This document shows positions 48,482 to 54,943 of a stretch of DNA of 64,000 nucleotides, one piece after another. The stretch is from contig DVIT01000015.1 in assembly GCA_018711005.1 (NCBI GenBank), positions 1,801 through 65,800 of the forward strand. The letters run 5' to 3'. Numbering within the stretch: position 1 is the first letter of the stretch; each line of letters starts with the position of its first letter. The stretch is from Candidatus Scybalocola faecigallinarum (GTDB taxonomy: Bacteria > Bacillota > Clostridia > Lachnospirales > Lachnospiraceae). The notes under the pieces are model-generated. The model had not been told where the DNA came from and did not search any database. It was given only the letters and a program-made list of their open reading frames with translations. Made by a program: the position numbers and the translations under genes.

Positions 48482-51049
48482 TCAGGCCTGAGGCTTATAA
48501 GCCAGCACAAGAGCTTCCAGTGTTTTACAAAGAAGCTCAAAATTAATAGGCTTTGAAATATGGGCGTCCATCCCTGCTTCTGTTGTGGCAGCCACATCCT
48601 CCGCAAAGGCATTGGCTGTCACAGCAATAATGGGGATCGCACCGGCATCTTTCCGGTTCATCCTGCGGATCTCCCGCGCCGCGTCACATCCGTTTTTCTC
48701 AGGCATCTGCATATCCATCAAAATCGCGTCAAACGCATATTCCTCAGAACTGCTGAACAGGTCTACCGCTTCCTGGCCATTCCATGCCTGGACAACATTT
48801 ACCCCGCTGGCCTCCAGGATTTCTGTGGCAATCTCCATATTAATCTCATTATCCTCTGCCAGAAGGATCTTGCGGCCTTCCAGGCTAAACGATGGATCTT
48901 CCCGTTTTTGGCCAGGCGCATCCGATATAGCACGAGGACTGTCCTGGTCAGAAGCAATCACAAACGGAATCGTCACAGTAAAGCAGGAGCCTTCATGGAG
49001 CTGGCTTTCCACAAGGATTTCCCCGTCCATTTGGGTCACAATGCTTTTTACAATGGCCATGCCCAGTCCTGTTCCTGCCACATTTTTGGCCCCAAAGCGG
49101 GTCTCCCTTTCATATGGGATAAATATTTTTTCCAAAAAAGCCTGGCTCATACCCACGCCGTCATCTTTAACAATAAACTGATAGGTTCCATGGCTTTGAT
49201 TTTCAATCTGAAGGGCCTGGAGCCGGATATGTCCGCCGGGTGATGTAAACTTAAAGGCATTGGACAAAAGATTATTTAAAATCTGAGTCAGACGGAAGGC
49301 GTCGCCAATGACCATCCGGTCGGTCATTTCAATGGAAATATCATAGGACTTTCCTTCCTTTTGAGCCTGATGGTCAAACACTGCCGCTGCATCTCTAACG
49401 CACTGGTTCAGGTCAAAGCGCCTGCTGTTTAAAGTGATCTCCTTTTGTTCCAGCCGGGACATTTCCAAAATATCATTAATCAGCCCTAAAAGCTGCCGGC
49501 TTGAGAAGTTAATCTTTTCCAGATATTCCTCCATCTTCTCCGGATGGGACACCTGGCCTTTTGCCAGCTCGGATAAGCCGATAATGGCATTTAAAGGCGT
49601 GCGCATGTCATGGGACATGGAAGAAAAGAACCGTTTCTGGGATTCTTCACTGTTTTTGGCATTTTCCAGGGAATTTTTCAAAAGCTCCAGCTGACGCAGC
49701 TGGCCTTCCCGCTCCTGCCCCACTTCCTTAAAGCATAAAACAACTTCATTATCATGGCTCAGGGACTCGTCAAAAAGCATATGGACAGATACCCATCGGT
49801 ATTCATTTCCAAAGCGGCGCAGAAAGTCCCCGCCAAAATCCCGTACTCTTTTTTTCACCAGCTGACGGATATTATCAATGGAAAAGCTTTCCATAAAATC
49901 CGTATAAGCAGCCGTCTCAATAAATTGCCCTGCAATCTTAATAAACTGACTATAATCACCGATTTTCGGCAAAAGCCCCCGGACATCATCAGATGCTTTG
50001 ATCATATCGTAAGTCGATTCCCGGACGCCTACCCGGTATATGGCATAGTAGGAATTTCCAAGAACACGCACCGTTTCATTGGTCTTTTCCACATCCCGGC
50101 TAAGACGGTAATCCCGTATGCTCATGGCAACAGTAAATGTCAGAAAAGCCAGAAAAACAATCACAAGGATCACGGCAAGTTCCCGAAGATCCTGCAGAAT
50201 GGTACGGTATGGAATGGTAATAATGGACATCCATCCGTTTTGTGCCTCATTGTAGTAAACGCCACGGCGCTCTCCGTTCAGATCTATAATATATGCGTCC
50301 GGATCACTCATTTCCCCATTTTGGATCCTTACGTAAAGATTGCTTACAAATGCCTGAAGGCTATCTTCAGTCACATCCAGGCTGGTTTCATAATACAGCA
50401 GCTGTCCGCTTTTATCACACAGGAAGTAGGAGCTGCTTTCCGGCAGCTGCACAGAATTAGAATCAATATGAAAATTTTCCGGAAAAACATCAAACGCAAT
50501 CACATTTTCCGAATCCTGGCACCGTGCGGCAATGGTAATAACCGGACGATTATAGATACTATCCTGATATGTATCCGTAAAAATCACTTCACCGTCGGCT
50601 GCCATAGCTTCCTGATACCACCCGGCCTGGGAAATGTTAAACTCTGCATCCCCCGTCCAGGGGTTGGCGGCAATAATCGTTCCATCGACAATCGCATATG
50701 GATCGATCACATCATCCCCCATAATATCGCCAATAGACTCCAAAAAACCCTGGATCCAAAGTGTCAGCTCCGTTTCACCGGCGCCCGCCTTAATCAGCCG
50801 GTCTATGGAATCTGCTCCCATCCGGATCAGCATTTCATAGGCATTAATATTGCCTTCTTCTTCAATGGAATAGTTTTCTGACAGGGCCTGGCCAACCTGC
50901 TGGGCATTGTTCAGCAGACTTTTCTGGAGTACATGAAGAAAGGCCACTGAGACGCCCAAAAGCAGTATGATGATCAGAATATTGACCCGGGATTCCTTCC
51001 AGATTTTTTTCATCACCCTGCCAATTTTTTTCTTACCTTTATTTTTCAA
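48482..51049 (-). CDS. Hybrid sensor histidine kinase/response regulator with extracellular Cache-like domain
   Basis: Two TMs, WY..A Cache motif, SHDMRTPL, NLLSNAFKFT, DDGVG, GTGLGM, C-terminal receiver LAEDN/ILMDMQMP. Confidence 0.92.
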   Translation of the reverse strand: MKNKGKKKIGRVMKKIWKESRVNILIIILLLGVSVAFLHVLQKSLLNNAQQVGQALSENYSIEEEGNINAYEMLIRMGADSIDRLIKAGAGETELTLWIQGFLESIGDIMGDDVIDPYAIVDGTIIAANPWTGDAEFNISQAGWYQEAMAADGEVIFTDTYQDSIYNRPVITIAARCQDSENVIAFDVFPENFHIDSNSVQLPESSSYFLCDKSGQLLYYETSLDVTEDSLQAFVSNLYVRIQNGEMSDPDAYIIDLNGERRGVYYNEAQNGWMSIITIPYRTILQDLRELAVILVIVFLAFLTFTVAMSIRDYRLSRDVEKTNETVRVLGNSYYAIYRVGVRESTYDMIKASDDVRGLLPKIGDYSQFIKIAGQFIETAAYTDFMESFSIDNIRQLVKKRVRDFGGDFLRRFGNEYRWVSVHMLFDESLSHDNEVVLCFKEVGQEREGQLRQLELLKNSLENAKNSEESQKRFFSSMSHDMRTPLNAIIGLSELAKGQVSHPEKMEEYLEKINFSSRQLLGLINDILEMSRLEQKEITLNSRRFDLNQCVRDAAAVFDHQAQKEGKSYDISIEMTDRMVIGDAFRLTQILNNLLSNAFKFTSPGGHIRLQALQIENQSHGTYQFIVKDDGVGMSQAFLEKIFIPYERETRFGAKNVAGTGLGMAIVKSIVTQMDGEILVESQLHEGSCFTVTIPFVIASDQDSPRAISDAPGQKREDPSFSLEGRKILLAEDNEINMEIATEILEASGVNVVQAWNGQEAVDLFSSSEEYAFDAILMDMQMPEKNGCDAAREIRRMNRKDAGAIPIIAVTANAFAEDVAATTEAGMDAHISKPINFELLCKTLEALVLAYKPQA

Positions 51050-52007
51050 TGAGATGCTCTCCCTGTTCCTTAATATCTAAAGCTTCGTATTCCTCTTTAA
51101 CCTTTTGTATCTCAGCCTTATCCACAGGCCGTATAATCTTAATCGCCTGCTTTATATTTGAAAGCTCCACTTCACGCCAGCAGCCCCCTTCTTCTCCGTC
51201 CAGAGTCCAGGATATTTCTTCTTCACTGGAAAAATGCACATGATCCACCTTGGCAGAAAACATATACCGCTCATCCACCTTCTGAAGAAGGAAGGCACTC
51301 ATAATGGCCTGAAGCTCAAACAGATTTTTAGGCATACGCACAAGAAGCATTTCAAATAAGCCGTCATCCAGCTCCATATCCTTGCCGTTAATACTTTTAA
51401 ACCCGCCGACAGATACTGAATTTGTCACCATGCCATAGGCAAAGCTGTCTGTGATCACTTCGTCATCAAATTCCACGGTCATGCGATGGGGGGTAATGCT
51501 TGGCAGACTTTTCAGTCCTTCCATTAAATAAGCCAGATGGCCGAATGTATTTTTAAGCTGCTGAGGCGTCTGCCAGGAAACATCGGTAAATGCCCCAAAG
51601 GCAGCCACATAGGCAAAATTCCGGTCATTAAACACACCTACATCAATAGCAAAGGGCGCACCGTGAAGCACATTGGCCGCCGCTGCGGTCATATTTGAAG
51701 AAATCCCCAGACTTTTGGCAAAGTCGTTGGTAGTGCCGGCAGGAATATAACCTAACGGCGGACGTTTTTCCAGACAGATCAGCCCGGAAACAACCTCATC
51801 TAAAGTACCATCGCCGCCGCTGCATACGACCAGATCATAATCACTGCCCCTGTGAGCTGCGACCTCATAGGCATCCCGTACAGCCTGGGTTGTATGCACC
51901 GTTACTTCGTAGCCGGCGGCTACAAACATATCGATGATGGAAGAAAAATGAGGTTTTATCTGATTTTTACCGGATTTCAAATTAGAAATAAATAAAAGCC
52001 TTTTCAC
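51039..52007 (-). CDS. Diacylglycerol kinase family lipid kinase
   Basis: SGGDGT, IPAGTTNDFA, LDGE. Confidence 0.9.
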   Translation of the reverse strand: MKRLLFISNLKSGKNQIKPHFSSIIDMFVAAGYEVTVHTTQAVRDAYEVAAHRGSDYDLVVCSGGDGTLDEVVSGLICLEKRPPLGYIPAGTTNDFAKSLGISSNMTAAAANVLHGAPFAIDVGVFNDRNFAYVAAFGAFTDVSWQTPQQLKNTFGHLAYLMEGLKSLPSITPHRMTVEFDDEVITDSFAYGMVTNSVSVGGFKSINGKDMELDDGLFEMLLVRMPKNLFELQAIMSAFLLQKVDERYMFSAKVDHVHFSSEEEISWTLDGEEGGCWREVELSNIKQAIKIIRPVDKAEIQKVKEEYEALDIKEQGEHLIEK

Positions 52008-53362
52008 TTGGACGCCTCCCGTCTGCGCTGCAACAGCACAATATTTTCAATGCCCGCAGTCATTGGGAACATATCCACCGGGCAGATCCCGCGGATACCA
52101 TATCCATACCGGTTCATAAGCGCCACATCCCGTTTCTGGGTGATCGGATTACAGGAAATATAAACGATCCGCTCCGGCTTCATACGGGCAAGGGCTTTTA
52201 AAAATTCCGGATTGCTCCCACTTCTTGGCGGGTCCATAATGACAACATTATAATATTTCTCCCTCTTAAAATCAACGGCAATCTGCCCCATATACGCTGC
52301 AGCATCTGCGCAGACAAATTCCGCATTTTCCACATGGTTTTGAGCAGCATTAAAACGCGCGTCCTTTACAGCATCCCGGTTCAGCTCCACACCGGTCACA
52401 AAACCGGCATATTTTGCACTGATCAGGGTGATCGTCCCTGTGCCGCAATAAGTATCCAGCACCCGGTCATTTTTTGTAATCCCGGCCATGGCTAAAGCCT
52501 TCTCATATAAAACTTCTGCCTGGGGCGGGTTCACCTGATAAAAAGATTTGGGAGATATGCGGAACTTCATGCCGCAAAGTATATCCTCAATATATCCCCG
52601 GCCAAAAACGACCCGCTGCTGATGTCCCAGGACCATACTTGTTTTTCCGTTATTTTTGTTAAAAACAATGGTGGTGATCTTGGGGAAACGCTTTACAAGA
52701 AAATGTACCAGTGCGTCTCCCTGGGGAAAATCCAGGGATGCCGCGACAGGCACAACCATCATCTGCCCGGTCTTATATCCGGTGCGGATCAGCACATGGC
52801 GCAGCATTCCCGTTCCTGTATCCTCATTATAGGGCTGTATTTTAAAGCGTTCCATAGCTTCAAGAATAGCGCGGATCACTTCATTGGCCGCCGGATCCTG
52901 GATCCGGCACTGATCTACAGGCAGAAGACGGTGGGTCCCCTCCTCATAAATCCCTGCAATCACTTTGCCATGGCGGTCTTTTCCAAAGGAAGCATGGACT
53001 TTGTGACGGTAGCCATAAGGATCTTCCATGCCCAGAGTCCCCGGAATATTTTTAAATCGGTCAAACAGCCGGGCCACCTGACCTGTCTTGTAGTCCAGCT
53101 GGCAGTCATACTTCATATGATAGATCTGGCAGCCGCCGCATTTTTCAAAATAAGGGCAGATATTTTCTTCCCGCTCCGGTGACTTCTCCAGCACAGACTC
53201 CAGCCGCCCCAGGGTCTGCGGCCCTTTGCGGTACAAAGTGATCTGAGCCAGTTCCCCGGGCAAAAGGCCGGGCACCGGTATCATGGAATGGTTAAAACTT
53301 ACAACGCCGCGGCCATATTCATCTAAATATTTACCCCGGACACGATAAACTTTCTTCTTCAT
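52004..53362 (-). CDS. rlmD: 23S rRNA (uracil-C5)-methyltransferase, RlmD family
   Basis: C..CGGC Fe-S motif, SFYQVN, DTYCGTG, DPPRSG, YISCNP, DMFP.T. ATG at 53362 after AAGGAG. Confidence 0.9.
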   Translation of the reverse strand: MKKKVYRVRGKYLDEYGRGVVSFNHSMIPVPGLLPGELAQITLYRKGPQTLGRLESVLEKSPEREENICPYFEKCGGCQIYHMKYDCQLDYKTGQVARLFDRFKNIPGTLGMEDPYGYRHKVHASFGKDRHGKVIAGIYEEGTHRLLPVDQCRIQDPAANEVIRAILEAMERFKIQPYNEDTGTGMLRHVLIRTGYKTGQMMVVPVAASLDFPQGDALVHFLVKRFPKITTIVFNKNNGKTSMVLGHQQRVVFGRGYIEDILCGMKFRISPKSFYQVNPPQAEVLYEKALAMAGITKNDRVLDTYCGTGTITLISAKYAGFVTGVELNRDAVKDARFNAAQNHVENAEFVCADAAAYMGQIAVDFKREKYYNVVIMDPPRSGSNPEFLKALARMKPERIVYISCNPITQKRDVALMNRYGYGIRGICPVDMFPMTAGIENIVLLQRRREASK

Positions 53363-53377
53363 AAACAACTCCTTGCT

Positions 53378-53416
53378 AAAAAGAAATACCGGAATGAATC
53401 GCTATCCATTCCGGTA
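53378..53416 (-). terminator. Terminator-like hairpin immediately before the rlmD SD
   Basis: 10-bp stem TACCGGAATG/CATTCCGGTA followed by TTTCTTTTT. Confidence 0.7.
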
Positions 53417-53470
53417 CCTCTTTACTGGTAGTATATATGAAATCTCATGGGGAATGAGTATCTCATGCAT

Positions 53471-53500
53471 TTAAAAAGCAGCCGCAAGCGGCTGCTTAAA
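53471..53500 (-). terminator. Terminator-like hairpin downstream of the B12 aptamer
   Basis: AAGCAGCCG-cttg-CGGCTGCTT followed by a T run. Confidence 0.7.
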
Positions 53501-53594
53501 AGACCCGAAATGAAACAACAGTCCCAGTATAGATATACTCCGACCATCCTATCATCCGTCTTCCATACACCGCAGAATCAGGTTACTCCATATC

Positions 53595-53825
53595 CAGGCA
53601 GGTCTCCTGACTTCAGATCATTGCCAAAATACGCCTTCTCAGCCGGCAGACACCTCTGCCTTCATGCCAATGGACTCATGTATCCTGGCTCCCTGTACAC
53701 AGTGACGGGATCGTTCCGGACTTGCACCGGATTCCCTATTAATTTCTCGCGAAAACCTGGAATGTCTGCAGCTGCCTTTACTGCCGTCACTTACCGGCAC
53801 CAAAAGAACTGCACCAATCATTTAA
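53595..53825 (-). ncRNA. Cobalamin (B12) riboswitch
   Basis: Minus strand has TGGTGC..., AATAGGGAATCCGGTGCAAGTCCGGAACGATCCCGTCACTGT, ...GAGAAGG..., and the B12-box GTCAGGAGACCTGCC (53597-53611). Confidence 0.93.
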
Positions 53826-53836
53826 TTTCTATTAAA

Positions 53837-53865
53837 ACAATAGCACGGCTGCCGTGAATTGTCAA
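53837..53865 (-). promoter_or_regulatory. Promoter driving the B12 riboswitch, with a palindrome in the spacer
   Basis: TTGACA-17 nt-TATTGT with extended TG; the spacer contains CACGGC-A-GCCGTG. Confidence 0.65.
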
Positions 53866-53920
53866 TATGTGAACCACAGCAACAGTTCAGCCAGCTGAAC
53901 TGTTACTCAGCTGATCCTCA

Positions 53921-54943
53921 TCAGTTAAACTTAAAGATCTTCTGGGCCAGATGATAGCCTTTTACAATCACCGGTTCTGCCCATCGTCCCGGAGGATTGC
54001 TCACAATACCTCTGGCGCCCAGACGGATATGCCAGTACATCTCAGGATCTCTTGCCTTGAAATCGTGCCACAGTTTCTTAAGCTTTGCCCGGTTCTCATC
54101 GGTTCCGGAAATAATCAGCATAATGGAAGTCACGCAGCAGATCATAGCCAGATACTTCATCATATACCTGGCCAGACGGCGGTTCTTCACATCCTTTGGC
54201 AAGCTGTAGGCATTGATCATAAGATTATTTACATAAATCTGCTGATCAATACGGCCGATCATCACCTGTTCGTTTACCGACTGATCGGAACGGCCGATAT
54301 AATAACGGTAAAGATCCACATTCATATAGTACATGGACTTTACGTAAGGCAGCGGCACATATACAAAAAGATTATCTACATAAAACGTATGCTTCGGAAG
54401 CACAAGACCGCTGCGGCGCAGCACTTTTGTCCGATAGATCACAGAATGCATTAAAAGATTTTGATCCGGACGGAAATGTCCCACGGAGTTCCATCCGAAA
54501 ACTCTGTCCTGCGGCAGTGCCTGTTTGTAGCTGACTGTATGGGACGTACCATCCTCCGCATGCTCATAAACATAATTGCAGATCATCATATCCACACGGC
54601 GGCGTTCCTTCCGGAAATGCTTCAGCTTATCGATCACAGCAAGCAGGCTGTCCTTATCCAGCCAGTCATCGGAATCTACAACTTTATAATACATTCCTGT
54701 AGCATTGCGAAGCCCTGCGTTTACTGCCTCGCCATGACCGCCGTTTTCCTGATGGATCGCCCGGCAGATTCCCGGGAACCGCTTTTCATATTCATCGGCA
54801 ATGGCCGGAGTATTATCTTTTGTTGATCCATCATCCACAATAAGGATCTCCGCATCATCCCCTGCCACCAGCAGCGAATCAATGCACTTACGCATATAAG
54901 CTTCCGAATTATAACACGGAACAGCAAACGTTATGATTTTCAT
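53921..54943 (-). CDS. Glycosyltransferase family 2
   Basis: VPCYN, VDDGS, NGGHG..VNAG, VVDSDD. Confidence 0.92.
   Translation of the reverse strand: MKIITFAVPCYNSEAYMRKCIDSLLVAGDDAEILIVDDGSTKDNTPAIADEYEKRFPGICRAIHQENGGHGEAVNAGLRNATGMYYKVVDSDDWLDKDSLLAVIDKLKHFRKERRRVDMMICNYVYEHAEDGTSHTVSYKQALPQDRVFGWNSVGHFRPDQNLLMHSVIYRTKVLRRSGLVLPKHTFYVDNLFVYVPLPYVKSMYYMNVDLYRYYIGRSDQSVNEQVMIGRIDQQIYVNNLMINAYSLPKDVKNRRLARYMMKYLAMICCVTSIMLIISGTDENRAKLKKLWHDFKARDPEMYWHIRLGARGIVSNPPGRWAEPVIVKGYHLAQKIFKFN

What the first reader, a model, noticed from the sequence alone, without database searches (positions are those of the whole stretch)
53363..53865. Cobalamin riboswitch with its own promoter in front of rlmD, separated by two terminators, with no B12 gene attached
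Seen: promoter (53837-53865), then a complete B12 aptamer, terminator-like hairpins at 53471-53500 and 53378-53416, and the rlmD SD immediately after the second U-tract. rlmD, the lipid kinase and the hybrid kinase overlap each other and look co-transcribed. I found no ORF with a good SD between the aptamer and rlmD. Established: B12 riboswitches normally control cobalamin synthesis or transport genes or B12-independent isozymes, and RlmD is SAM/Fe-S dependent. Inference: either an unreported B12 control of an rRNA methyltransferase-lipid kinase-sensor kinase operon, or an orphan switch left after deletion of its gene that may act as a stand-alone B12-binding RNA.
Basis: partly seen in the sequence, partly recalled or inferred. 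Interest (0 to 1): 0.65.

Follow-up and report, generated by a model that had tools for sequence, protein, structure and literature searches.

The report
B12 switch gating a conserved RNA module
A real vitamin-B12 riboswitch in a gut Lachnospiraceae genome controls no B12 gene; it decides whether a short, almost invariant RNA segment lying between two terminators is transcribed, so it is probably a B12-controlled regulatory RNA that also sits in the path of transcription into the rlmD operon.

Summary
Present on the minus strand are a TG-extended promoter, a full-length cobalamin aptamer (95 bits), two intrinsic terminators (T1, T2) and the rlmD ribosome-binding site 4 nt after the T2 U-tract.

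Five of the eight species in this uncultured genus carry the same unit. Three of them have a DNA-deoxyinosine glycosylase gene between the unit and rlmD, not a B12 gene. That gene is absent from this genome and its nearest relative. One species has cleanly deleted the aptamer. Two have no unit.

The unit is not a neutral scar. Synonymous sites of the flanking gene are near saturation (dS 0.9), yet the aptamer keeps its structure (12 compensatory pairs). A 45-nt stretch between T1 and T2 is the best-conserved sequence in the region (40 of 48 columns invariant).

Best reading (about 45%): a B12-gated non-coding RNA with EutX/Rli55 logic. It has no ANTAR site and the genus has no eut genes.

Main rival (about 30%): a two-terminator leader that makes rlmD, a lipid kinase gene and a sensor kinase gene B12-dependent. 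In this genome some such dependence is hard to avoid.

The parts
53837..53865 (-). Promoter: -35 TTGACA, 17-nt spacer, TG-extended -10 TGcTATTGT
   Evidence: 10 of 12 matches, TG present. Homologous promoters in G001, G003, G005 and G006. Coordinates checked.
53580..53774 (-). Cobalamin riboswitch aptamer (RF00174), long form with peripheral extension
   Evidence: 95.1 bits, full model; 12 of 46 predicted pairs keep pairing through double changes across 5 species.
53568..53575 (-). CTGCGGTG, predicted 5' strand of the antiterminator that pairs with the 5' arm of T1
   Evidence: when the T1 3' arm is withheld, this segment pairs with the T1 5' arm in the minimum-energy fold of all 5 species. 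Inference only.
53501..53567 (-). Expression-platform helix between aptamer and T1. The base is conserved and the apex is variable (a 100-nt insert in G001).
53471..53500 (-). Terminator T1, the presumed B12-controlled terminator. It would end a short RNA of about 360 nt.
   Evidence: -15.2 kcal/mol. Conserved in all 5 unit-bearing species and retained in G002 after the aptamer deletion.
53437..53466 (-). Hairpin A: 12-bp stem with one bulge and a UCCCC loop. It contains the direct repeat CAUGAGAU twice.
   Evidence: -9.6 kcal/mol. All 12 pairs are kept in the 5 species, with a single one-sided change (A-U to G-U in G003). The stem therefore shows no compensatory change.
53421..53465 (-). Near-invariant 45-nt module (hairpin A plus AU-rich linker ..AUAUACUACCAGUAA)
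   Evidence: 40 of 48 columns invariant, mean identity 90%. This compares with 78% for the last 150 nt of the GT2 gene and 63% for the aptamer. Single copy in the genome. No Rfam match.
53378..53423 (-). Terminator T2: perfect 20-bp stem, AGCG loop, U-tract. It would end a long RNA of about 450 nt.
   Evidence: -26.6 kcal/mol, z -8.9. (3 compensatory pairs, for example CCGG/CCGG to CCAG/CUGG in G006).
52004..53374 (-). rlmD (23S rRNA m5U1939 methyltransferase family) with SD AAGGAG at 53369-74 and ATG at 53360-62
   Evidence: TIGR00479, 393 bits..
51039..52007 (-). DAGK_cat/YegS-family lipid kinase. Its start overlaps the rlmD stop.
48482..51049 (-). Hybrid sensor histidine kinase (dCache_1 below cutoff, HisKA, HATPase_c, REC). 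Overlaps the end of the kinase gene. Last gene of the operon.
53921..54943 (-). Family-2 glycosyltransferase, the conserved upstream neighbour. It is followed by a hairpin with no U-tract.

Best explanation
The locus is a selectively maintained, genus-specific transcription unit. In order it contains a sigma-A promoter, a cobalamin aptamer, intrinsic terminator T1, a 45-nt near-invariant module (a hairpin with a C-rich loop plus an AU-rich linker) and a strong terminator T2.

Proposed mechanism:
- With B12 bound, the segment CUGCGGUG next to the aptamer is held back. T1 then forms and an RNA of about 360 nt is released.
- Without B12, that segment pairs with the 5' arm of T1. Polymerase reads on, transcribes the module and mostly stops at T2, giving an RNA of about 450 nt.
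- B12 therefore decides whether the module exists as RNA. The module is the working part of a regulatory RNA that acts on a partner still unknown, either a protein or an mRNA. This is the logic of EutX/Rli55, without an ANTAR site.

The glycosylase gene that follows the unit in three relatives, and rlmD here, are neighbours rather than the reason the switch exists.

In this genome a deletion has brought T2 to within 4 nt of the rlmD ribosome-binding site. Transcripts that leak through T1 and T2 are therefore probably a main source of mRNA for rlmD, the lipid kinase gene and the sensor kinase gene. That would make the operon B12-dependent as a side effect.

What is shown: the anatomy, the conservation, the selection and the gene-content history. 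What is inferred: B12-dependence of T1, the two RNA lengths and any action in trans.
For: - The aptamer is full length and strong. Its structure is kept by compensatory change.
- The promoter, T1, the module and T2 are conserved in order in 5 of 8 species of the genus.
- No conserved promoter precedes the module. In three species it starts within about 10 nt of the T1 U-tract, so it can only be made by read-through of T1.
- The module is the most conserved stretch of the region: 40 of 48 columns invariant, 90% identity against 78% for neighbouring coding DNA. Synonymous divergence of that coding DNA is 0.9 to above 1.
- T2 is a 20-bp terminator with a U-tract, kept by compensatory changes. No alternative pairing stronger than 7 bp exists, so it looks constitutive.
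- The unit outlived the loss of the gene behind it. The glycosylase is absent from the whole G000 and G001 genomes, yet G000 and G001 share 88% identity in the aptamer and 95% in the module.
- The downstream gene differs between species, and inserts of 0-300 nt between T1 and the module and of 4-170 nt after T2 are tolerated.
- The module has the usual build of a small-RNA 3' domain: a stem-loop with a C-rich loop, an AU-rich single strand and a terminator.
- Precedent for a B12-gated RNA whose extension is the active part: EutX/Rli55 (PMC5821096).
Against:
- No target was found. The module has no complement longer than 15 nt anywhere in the genome. Duplex energies are no better than for shuffled queries, genome-wide and against btuF/cbiM leaders.
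- No second copy of the motifs exists, so nothing points to a protein regulon.
- The unit always lies on the same strand directly upstream of an operon. No sigma-70-like promoter is seen between T2 and the next gene in any species. In G000 (4 nt) and G006 (about 50 nt) there is no room for one. That fits a cis-acting leader equally well.
- Three congeners do without the unit.
Confidence: 0.45

Rival explanations
1. The unit is a cis-acting leader with two terminators. The riboswitch promoter is the promoter of the downstream operon: glycosylase, rlmD, lipid kinase and sensor kinase in the ancestor, and rlmD onward here. Expression requires passage of T1, which B12 controls, and of T2. T2 would be controlled through hairpin A by an unknown protein, RNA or ligand. 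The operon would then be a genuine, unreported member of a B12 regulon.
For: - Same-strand adjacency in all 5 species. No promoter-like site lies between T2 and the next start codon.
- The SD sits 4 nt after the T2 U-tract in G000, and the spacer is about 50 nt in G006.
- In G003 the glycosylase stop overlaps the rlmD start, which indicates one operon.
- The 7-mer UCAUUCC in hairpin A is identical to part of the T2 3' arm. It could pair with GGAAUGR in the T2 5' arm in all 5 species, a possible antiterminator. Chance expectation for such a match is about 0.04 (my estimate, from reading the alignment).
- The invariant hairpin would suit a binding site.
Against: - T2 is a perfect 20-bp stem (-26.6 kcal/mol), while the candidate antiterminator has 6-7 bp.
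- Its 5' strand is already locked in the more stable hairpin A (-9.6 kcal/mol), so termination is the default and nothing obvious relieves it.
- No known aptamer or leader family matches the module.
- None of the operon's products has a known link to B12.
- G002, G004 and G007 run the same operon with no riboswitch, and in G004 the operon follows GT2 after 20 nt.
- The promoter scan also finds no promoter in G002, where one must exist or T1 must leak. Its silence is therefore weak evidence.
Confidence: 0.3
2. The switch is a non-functional remnant. It once served a gene that is now lost, and is on its way out, as in G002. The conserved stretch and T2 serve only to end transcription from the upstream znu-GT2 genes.
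For: A gene has been lost behind the switch in the G000/G001/G002 lineage. G002 has deleted the -10 box, the aptamer and the module, keeping only T1. G004 and G007 lack the unit. The genus-wide distribution is patchy.
Against: - Synonymous divergence between G000 and G001 is 0.92 (53% of synonymous sites differ), so neutral DNA would be unalignable. Yet the aptamer is 88% and the module 95% identical.
- The aptamer scores 95-108 bits in all five species and shows compensatory changes.
- The promoter is intact in all five.
- A plain terminator does not need 45 invariant nucleotides in front of it.
- The lost gene has no B12 link in 20 other genera.
Confidence: 0.08
3. The invariant stretch works as DNA, not RNA. 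It would be an operator (the palindrome ATGAG-ATA-CTCAT and the repeat ATGAGAT) overlapping a weak promoter (-10 TATACT at 53431-53436) that drives the downstream genes.
For: Direct and inverted repeats are present. A -10-like hexamer is retained in all five species as TATACT, AATACT or GATATT. It would give rlmD a promoter in G000.
Against: - There is no acceptable -35 at 16-18 nt (read from the sequence), and the scan does not report the site.
- A transcript starting there would begin with the complete T2 hairpin and U-tract and would terminate.
- No further copies of the repeats exist in the genome.
Confidence: 0.07

Closest known systems
EutX (Enterococcus faecalis) / Rli55 (Listeria monocytogenes): AdoCbl-riboswitch-containing small RNAs
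   Same: Own promoter, then a cobalamin aptamer, then a terminator that gives a short form when B12 is bound. The extension made only at low B12 carries the functional element. No protein gene is required (PMC5821096).
   Different: - The extension here has no ANTAR substrate. Its hairpin loops are 3-5 nt, or AGAUUU with U at position 4, where G4 is obligatory (PMC8934654).
- The genus has no ethanolamine ammonia-lyase gene.
- The one ANTAR protein in the genome lies in a putative nitrogen-metabolism neighbourhood. The glnA and gltB labels there come from ORF size and N-terminal sequence, not a family search.
- The unit lies head-to-tail before an operon that may receive its read-through.
- The partner is unknown.
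Ordinary cobalamin riboswitch leaders (for example btuFCD in this same genome)
   Same: Same aptamer family. Terminator-type expression platform with a predicted antiterminator.
   Different: All other cobalamin riboswitches in the 8 genomes precede lipoproteins resembling BtuF or a protein resembling CbiM. Those names come from N-terminal sequence only. This one precedes a second terminator and then genes with no B12 link.
Tandem riboswitch or attenuator leaders (for example SAM plus AdoCbl before Bacillus clausii metE; reviewed in PMC9481103, which I saw only in the listing and did not read)
   Same: Two successive terminators in one leader, each able to stop transcription. This would give two-input logic.
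   Different: The second unit has no recognisable aptamer and no convincing antiterminator. The genes behind it are unrelated to B12.
AspocR (Listeria), a B12-riboswitch-controlled antisense RNA
   Same: A B12 riboswitch controls the length of a non-coding transcript (my own knowledge of the literature).
   Different: The next gene here is on the same strand, so read-through is sense, not antisense. No antisense match to any other locus was found.

Membership tests
Cobalamin riboswitch (Rfam RF00174) | Covariance-model score above the gathering threshold over the whole model | tested here: met
   95.1 bits against a threshold of 31.5, model positions 1-189, not truncated. Orthologues score 91-108 bits.
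Cobalamin riboswitch (Rfam RF00174) | Conserved core including the B12 box (..AGUCAGGAGACCUGCC..) and a structure maintained in evolution | tested here: met
   The B12 box is invariant in 5 species. 12 of 46 predicted pairs show compensatory double changes.
Cobalamin riboswitch (Rfam RF00174) | Expression platform with mutually exclusive terminator and antiterminator | tested here: inconclusive
   T1 is conserved. An antiterminator helix (CUGCGGUG with the T1 5' arm) appears in constrained folds of all 5 species. It is short and not proven by covariation.
Cobalamin riboswitch (Rfam RF00174) | Binds a corrinoid and changes termination | not testable with these tools
   Needs in-line probing or in vitro transcription.
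Cobalamin riboswitch (Rfam RF00174) | Usual context: leader of a B12 synthesis or transport gene, or of a B12-independent isozyme | tested here: not met
   The downstream genes are rlmD, a lipid kinase gene and a sensor kinase gene here, with a deoxyinosine glycosylase gene first in three relatives.
EutX/Rli55-type riboswitch sRNA | Own promoter, aptamer and terminator, then an extension ending at a second terminator, with no ORF | tested here: met
   Candidate small ORFs are broken by indels in relatives.
EutX/Rli55-type riboswitch sRNA | Extension carries an ANTAR substrate: hairpin(s) with hexaloops, A at position 1 and G at position 4 | tested here: not met
   Read from the alignment. The only possible hexaloop is AGAUUU, with U at position 4. 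Criteria are taken from PMC8934654. This was checked by eye, not by a systematic scan.
EutX/Rli55-type riboswitch sRNA | Genome has the eut locus with EutV/EutW | tested here: not met
   EutB (PF06751) is absent from all 8 genomes of the genus. The single ANTAR protein lies beside putative glnA and gltB genes, named from ORF size and N-terminal sequence only.
EutX/Rli55-type riboswitch sRNA | Two RNA isoforms whose ratio depends on B12 | not testable with these tools
Tandem riboswitch / two-input attenuator leader | Second sensor domain with its own regulated terminator | tested here: inconclusive
   T2 and an invariant hairpin are present. There is no Rfam match. The only alternative pairing is 6-7 bp against a 20-bp stem.

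The most novel reading that the evidence does not exclude
A B12-riboswitch-gated regulatory RNA of a new type. Its low-B12 extension is a 45-nt invariant module (a hairpin with a UCCCC loop plus an AU-rich linker) that acts on a partner other than an ANTAR regulator. The alternative form of the same novelty is that the module is a second, unknown sensor. Together with B12 it would then place an operon for an rRNA methyltransferase, a lipid kinase and a sensor kinase under two-input control. Either way, B12 would govern something outside the classical B12 regulon in a gut Lachnospiraceae genus.
Probability: 0.4. Interest if true: 0.65.

Novelty: new variant of a known kind. Interest (0 to 1): 0.5.

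Why it matters
Outside EutX/Rli55 and AspocR, B12 riboswitches are treated as leaders of B12 transport or synthesis genes, or of genes for B12-independent isozymes. Here a riboswitch is kept by selection although the gene behind it was lost. It is tied to an extremely conserved RNA segment of unknown function.

If the segment acts in trans, it extends the riboswitch-gated small-RNA idea to bacteria without ethanolamine genes and to a new partner. If it acts in cis, it links B12 to ribosome modification, lipid metabolism and signalling.

One relative appears from its record name to be a cultured human-gut isolate (MGYG-HGUT-00127). If so, the question can be tested at the bench.

The eight genomes also give a clear series of riboswitch decay: full unit with the gene behind it, orphan unit, then terminator only.

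Tried and rejected
- **Rfam on the module alone, with lax filters.** Only chance-level hits driven by the terminators.
- **Wider search for the module.**
  - BLAST over 60 relatives and the genus.
  - Exact-pattern scans of genome contigs (only the four known relatives) and of metagenome contigs, twice with no hits.
  - A covariance model over 400 genomes of the family. Hits outside the genus scored 39 bits or less. The five best that I inspected were generic long terminators without hairpin A.
  - The module appears confined to this genus.
- **The glycosylase as the true B12 target, for example a cobamide-remodelling enzyme.** Rejected. None of 20 loci from other genera has a cobalamin riboswitch, and none is linked to rlmD or GT2.
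- **EutX orthology.** Rejected. No ANTAR hexaloops and no EutB, and the only ANTAR protein is in a putative nitrogen-metabolism context.
- **Trans-target prediction.**
  - Seed-and-duplex scan of the whole genome: no better than shuffled queries (an earlier full scan timed out).
  - blastn-short for antisense matches: longest 15 nt, within chance.
  - Duplexes with btuF/cbiM leaders of six species: no better than shuffles.
- **Extra copies of the hairpin motifs, which would indicate a protein regulon.** None.
- **A small peptide.** The 22-codon frame is broken by indels in the C-run. An 8-codon frame, MRFH[I/K/R]YYQ*, is conserved but has no ribosome-binding site, and its AUG lies inside hairpin A. 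Rejected.
- **Mimicry of the RlmD rRNA substrate.** There is no 23S gene in the assembly. From memory, only a 5-nt resemblance exists. Dropped.
- **Correlation of the unit with B12-dependent enzymes.** All 8 genomes have two to five B12-binding-domain proteins, most often three, whether or not they carry the unit.
- **GT2-rlmD synteny in other genera, to date the insertion.** The synteny is genus-specific and so uninformative.

Full report
**1. What is in the sequence**

All features are on the minus strand.
- The promoter is TTGACA (53865-60), a 17-nt spacer and TG-extended TATTGT (53842-37).
- RF00174 matches 53774-53580 at 95.1 bits, E 2e-23, over the whole model.
- A long platform helix follows (53567-53501).
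- T1 lies at 53500-53471. It is a 9-bp GC-rich stem with U5, -15.2 kcal/mol.
- A 30-nt hairpin with a UCCCC loop lies at 53466-53437 (-9.6 kcal/mol). A 13-nt AU-rich linker follows it.
- T2 lies at 53423-53378. It is a perfect 20-bp stem with a U-tract, -26.6 kcal/mol, z -8.9.
- The rlmD SD AAGGAG (53374-69) begins 4 nt after the last U of T2, and the ATG is at 53362.
- The three downstream genes overlap one another: rlmD (TIGR00479, 393 bits), a DAGK_cat/YegS-family lipid kinase gene and a hybrid histidine kinase gene.

**2. B12 context of the genome**

- The assembly has only two cobalamin riboswitches. The other one precedes three genes that look like a btuFCD-type ABC transporter, named from ORF sizes and N-terminal sequence, not from a family search.
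- Across the eight species of the genus, every other cobalamin riboswitch precedes a lipoprotein resembling BtuF or a protein resembling CbiM.
- All eight genomes have two to five B12-binding-domain proteins, most often three. By size these look like a MetH-type protein, a small corrinoid protein and a B12-binding radical-SAM protein.
- None has EutB.

**3. Relatives**

Four congeners (G001, G003, G005, G006) carry the same series between the same glycosyltransferase gene and rlmD: promoter, aptamer, T1, module, T2.
- In G003, G005 and G006 a gene of about 175-195 codons lies between T2 and rlmD. It is a DNA-deoxyinosine glycosylase (TIGR04274, 137 bits). In G003 its stop overlaps the rlmD start.
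- That family is present in 84 of 151 genomes of the bacterial family but absent from the whole G000 and G001 genomes.
- In 20 loci from other genera it has no riboswitch and no rlmD or GT2 neighbour.
- G004 and G007 have no unit. In G004, rlmD follows GT2 after 20 nt.
- G002 keeps the -35 box fused directly to the sequence just upstream of T1. It also lacks the module and T2. These are two clean deletions.
- Protein identities group the species as (G000, G001, G002), then G007, with G005/G006, G003 and G004 further out.

The unit spans the deepest splits of the genus. The simplest history is an ancestral unit with the glycosylase behind it. The glycosylase was then lost in the lineage leading to G000/G001/G002. 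The unit itself was later lost in G002, and also in G007 and G004 (or G004 never had it).

**4. Selection**

- Between G000 and G001, 53% of synonymous sites of the GT2 gene differ (dS 0.92). Against G005, G006 and G007, dS is 1.3 or above.
- Unconstrained intergenic DNA should therefore be unalignable. The spacers are indeed unalignable. They carry 100-300-nt inserts, including a tandem GC-rich repeat in G003.
- Yet the G000 and G001 aptamers are 88% identical and the module plus T2 is 95% identical.
- Across five species, 12 of 46 predicted aptamer pairs are kept through double changes, and T2 has 3 such pairs.
- The 45-nt stretch in front of T2 has 40 of 48 invariant columns and 90% mean identity. 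The last 150 nt of the well-conserved GT2 gene have 78%, and the aptamer 63%.

The switch and the module are therefore functional in this genome. The gene behind them is not the reason they are kept.

**5. How the switch probably works**

- T1 is conserved in all five species.
- When its 3' arm is withheld, the invariant CUGCGGUG right after the aptamer pairs with the T1 5' arm in the best fold of every species, enclosing the platform helix.
- This is the usual OFF-switch layout, in which ligand binding withdraws the antiterminator strand. It is an inference.
- No conserved promoter precedes the module. In G000, G001 and G006 the module begins within about 10 nt of the T1 U-tract. It can therefore only be made when T1 is read through, that is, at low B12.

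**6. What the module is**

- It matches no Rfam family.
- It is single copy.
- It is confined to this genus.
- It is not coding. Indels in the C-run shift every longer frame. The one conserved 8-codon frame has no ribosome-binding site, and its AUG is paired.
- Its build is that of a small-RNA 3' domain: a stem-loop with a C-rich loop, an AU-rich single strand and a strong terminator.
- It is not an ANTAR substrate by the criteria of PMC8934654. The only ANTAR protein lies in a putative nitrogen-metabolism neighbourhood.
- I found no target. There is no antisense match longer than 15 nt, and no duplex better than shuffled controls, genome-wide or against B12 transporter leaders.

**7. Cis or trans**

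For a cis-acting leader:
- The unit is always head-to-tail with the next operon.
- No promoter-like site follows T2 in any species.
- In G000 and G006 there is no room for one, so those genes must be transcribed through T2.
- The 7-mer UCAUUCC in hairpin A equals part of the T2 3' arm and could pair with the T2 5' arm.

Against a regulated T2:
- A 6-7-bp alternative cannot compete with a perfect 20-bp stem.
- Its strand is already held in hairpin A.
- None of the operon's products has a B12 link.
- Three congeners run the operon without the unit.
- The same scan finds no promoter in G002, where T1 stands alone in front of rlmD. Its silence therefore carries little weight.

My weights are about 45% for a B12-gated regulatory RNA, with read-through into rlmD as a by-product in this genome. 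The cis leader gets about 30%, a functionless remnant about 8% and a DNA-level operator or promoter about 7%. The rest is unassigned. The first two readings are not mutually exclusive.

**8. Comparison with known systems**

- The aptamer is an ordinary member of RF00174.
- The unit works like EutX/Rli55 (PMC5821096) but fails two defining features of that family, the ANTAR site and the eut genes. It is a variant, not a member.
- A full-text search found no paper linking a B12 riboswitch to rlmD/RumA or to hypoxanthine DNA glycosylase.
- Earlier notes of this scan describe orphan B12 riboswitch units with two terminators in other uncultured Clostridia. These are unchecked leads. I tested one of their ideas here, that the extension is an antisense copy of a distant leader, and it does not apply to this locus.

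**9. Verdict**

- The locus is a new variant of a known kind, with the mechanism of the module unresolved.
- Interest is moderate (0.5).
- It becomes testable if the isolate behind MGYG-HGUT-00127 can be grown; I infer that it is a cultured isolate from the record name only.

Noticed in passing
window 53880-53915 (-); also L030 (G001, two copies) and L032 (G005): A palindromic element, core GTTCAGCTGGCTGAAC, follows the GT2 stop codon. It recurs in the same intergenic region of relatives, in G001 both before the promoter and after T2. It looks like a small REP-like repeat. It has no U-tract, so the GT2 gene may not be terminated before the riboswitch promoter.
   Followed up: no
L031 (G003) between T1 and the module; L032 4855-5004 (G005): G003 carries about three tandem copies of a GC-rich unit of roughly 95 nt, inserted between T1 and the module. 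G005 has GC-rich inserts as well, and a Clostridiales-1 RNA (RF01699, 51 bits) just upstream of the riboswitch promoter. These insertions are tolerated inside the unit.
   Followed up: partly
window 53843-53856: The palindrome CACGGC-A-GCCGTG in the promoter spacer, flagged in another note, is not conserved in any of the four orthologous promoters. A conserved repressor site there is unlikely.
   Followed up: partly
window 53421-53447 (-): An 8-codon frame, AUG AGA UUU CAU AUA UAC UAC CAG UAA (MRFHIYYQ*), is kept in all five species. It has one non-synonymous site (I/K/R) and one synonymous change (UAC to UAU). It ends exactly at the foot of T2. It has no ribosome-binding site, and its AUG is paired in hairpin A. 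It is probably not translated, but it would place a ribosome on the T2 5' arm if it were.
   Followed up: partly
window 53448-53456 (-) versus 53730-53738 (-): The loop region of hairpin A (AUUCCC) is complementary to the universally conserved GGGAAU of cobalamin aptamer cores. In G001 the match to its own aptamer extends to 9 nt (AUUCCCUAU with AUAGGGAAU). Six nucleotides could be chance. The match hints that the module might pair with B12 aptamers.
   Followed up: no
G000 contig C7:21500-35000 (outside the window): The only ANTAR-domain protein of the genome (183 aa) sits between ORFs that look like a glutamine synthetase gene and a 481-aa gene. ORFs resembling gatA/gatB and a 1507-aa glutamate synthase gene are nearby. 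This would be a nitrogen-regulation antiterminator of the clostridial type. The gene names come from ORF size and N-terminal sequence only.
   Followed up: no
L027 (G002) around 2950-3100: In G002, T1 survives alone between GT2 and rlmD after precise loss of the -10 box, the aptamer, the module and T2. This is a natural example of a riboswitch terminator retained as a plain terminator. The search also reported one in-frame TAA within the rlmD match of G002, which I did not examine.
   Followed up: partly
window 60718-63787 (-): ORFs that another note of this scan reads as a cobU-cobS-cobC-cobT nucleotide-loop assembly operon lie 7-10 kb upstream on the same strand, with no riboswitch of their own. 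I saw the ORFs but did not run a family search on them. I also did not examine whether the module RNA could act on them beyond the genome-wide scans.
   Followed up: no
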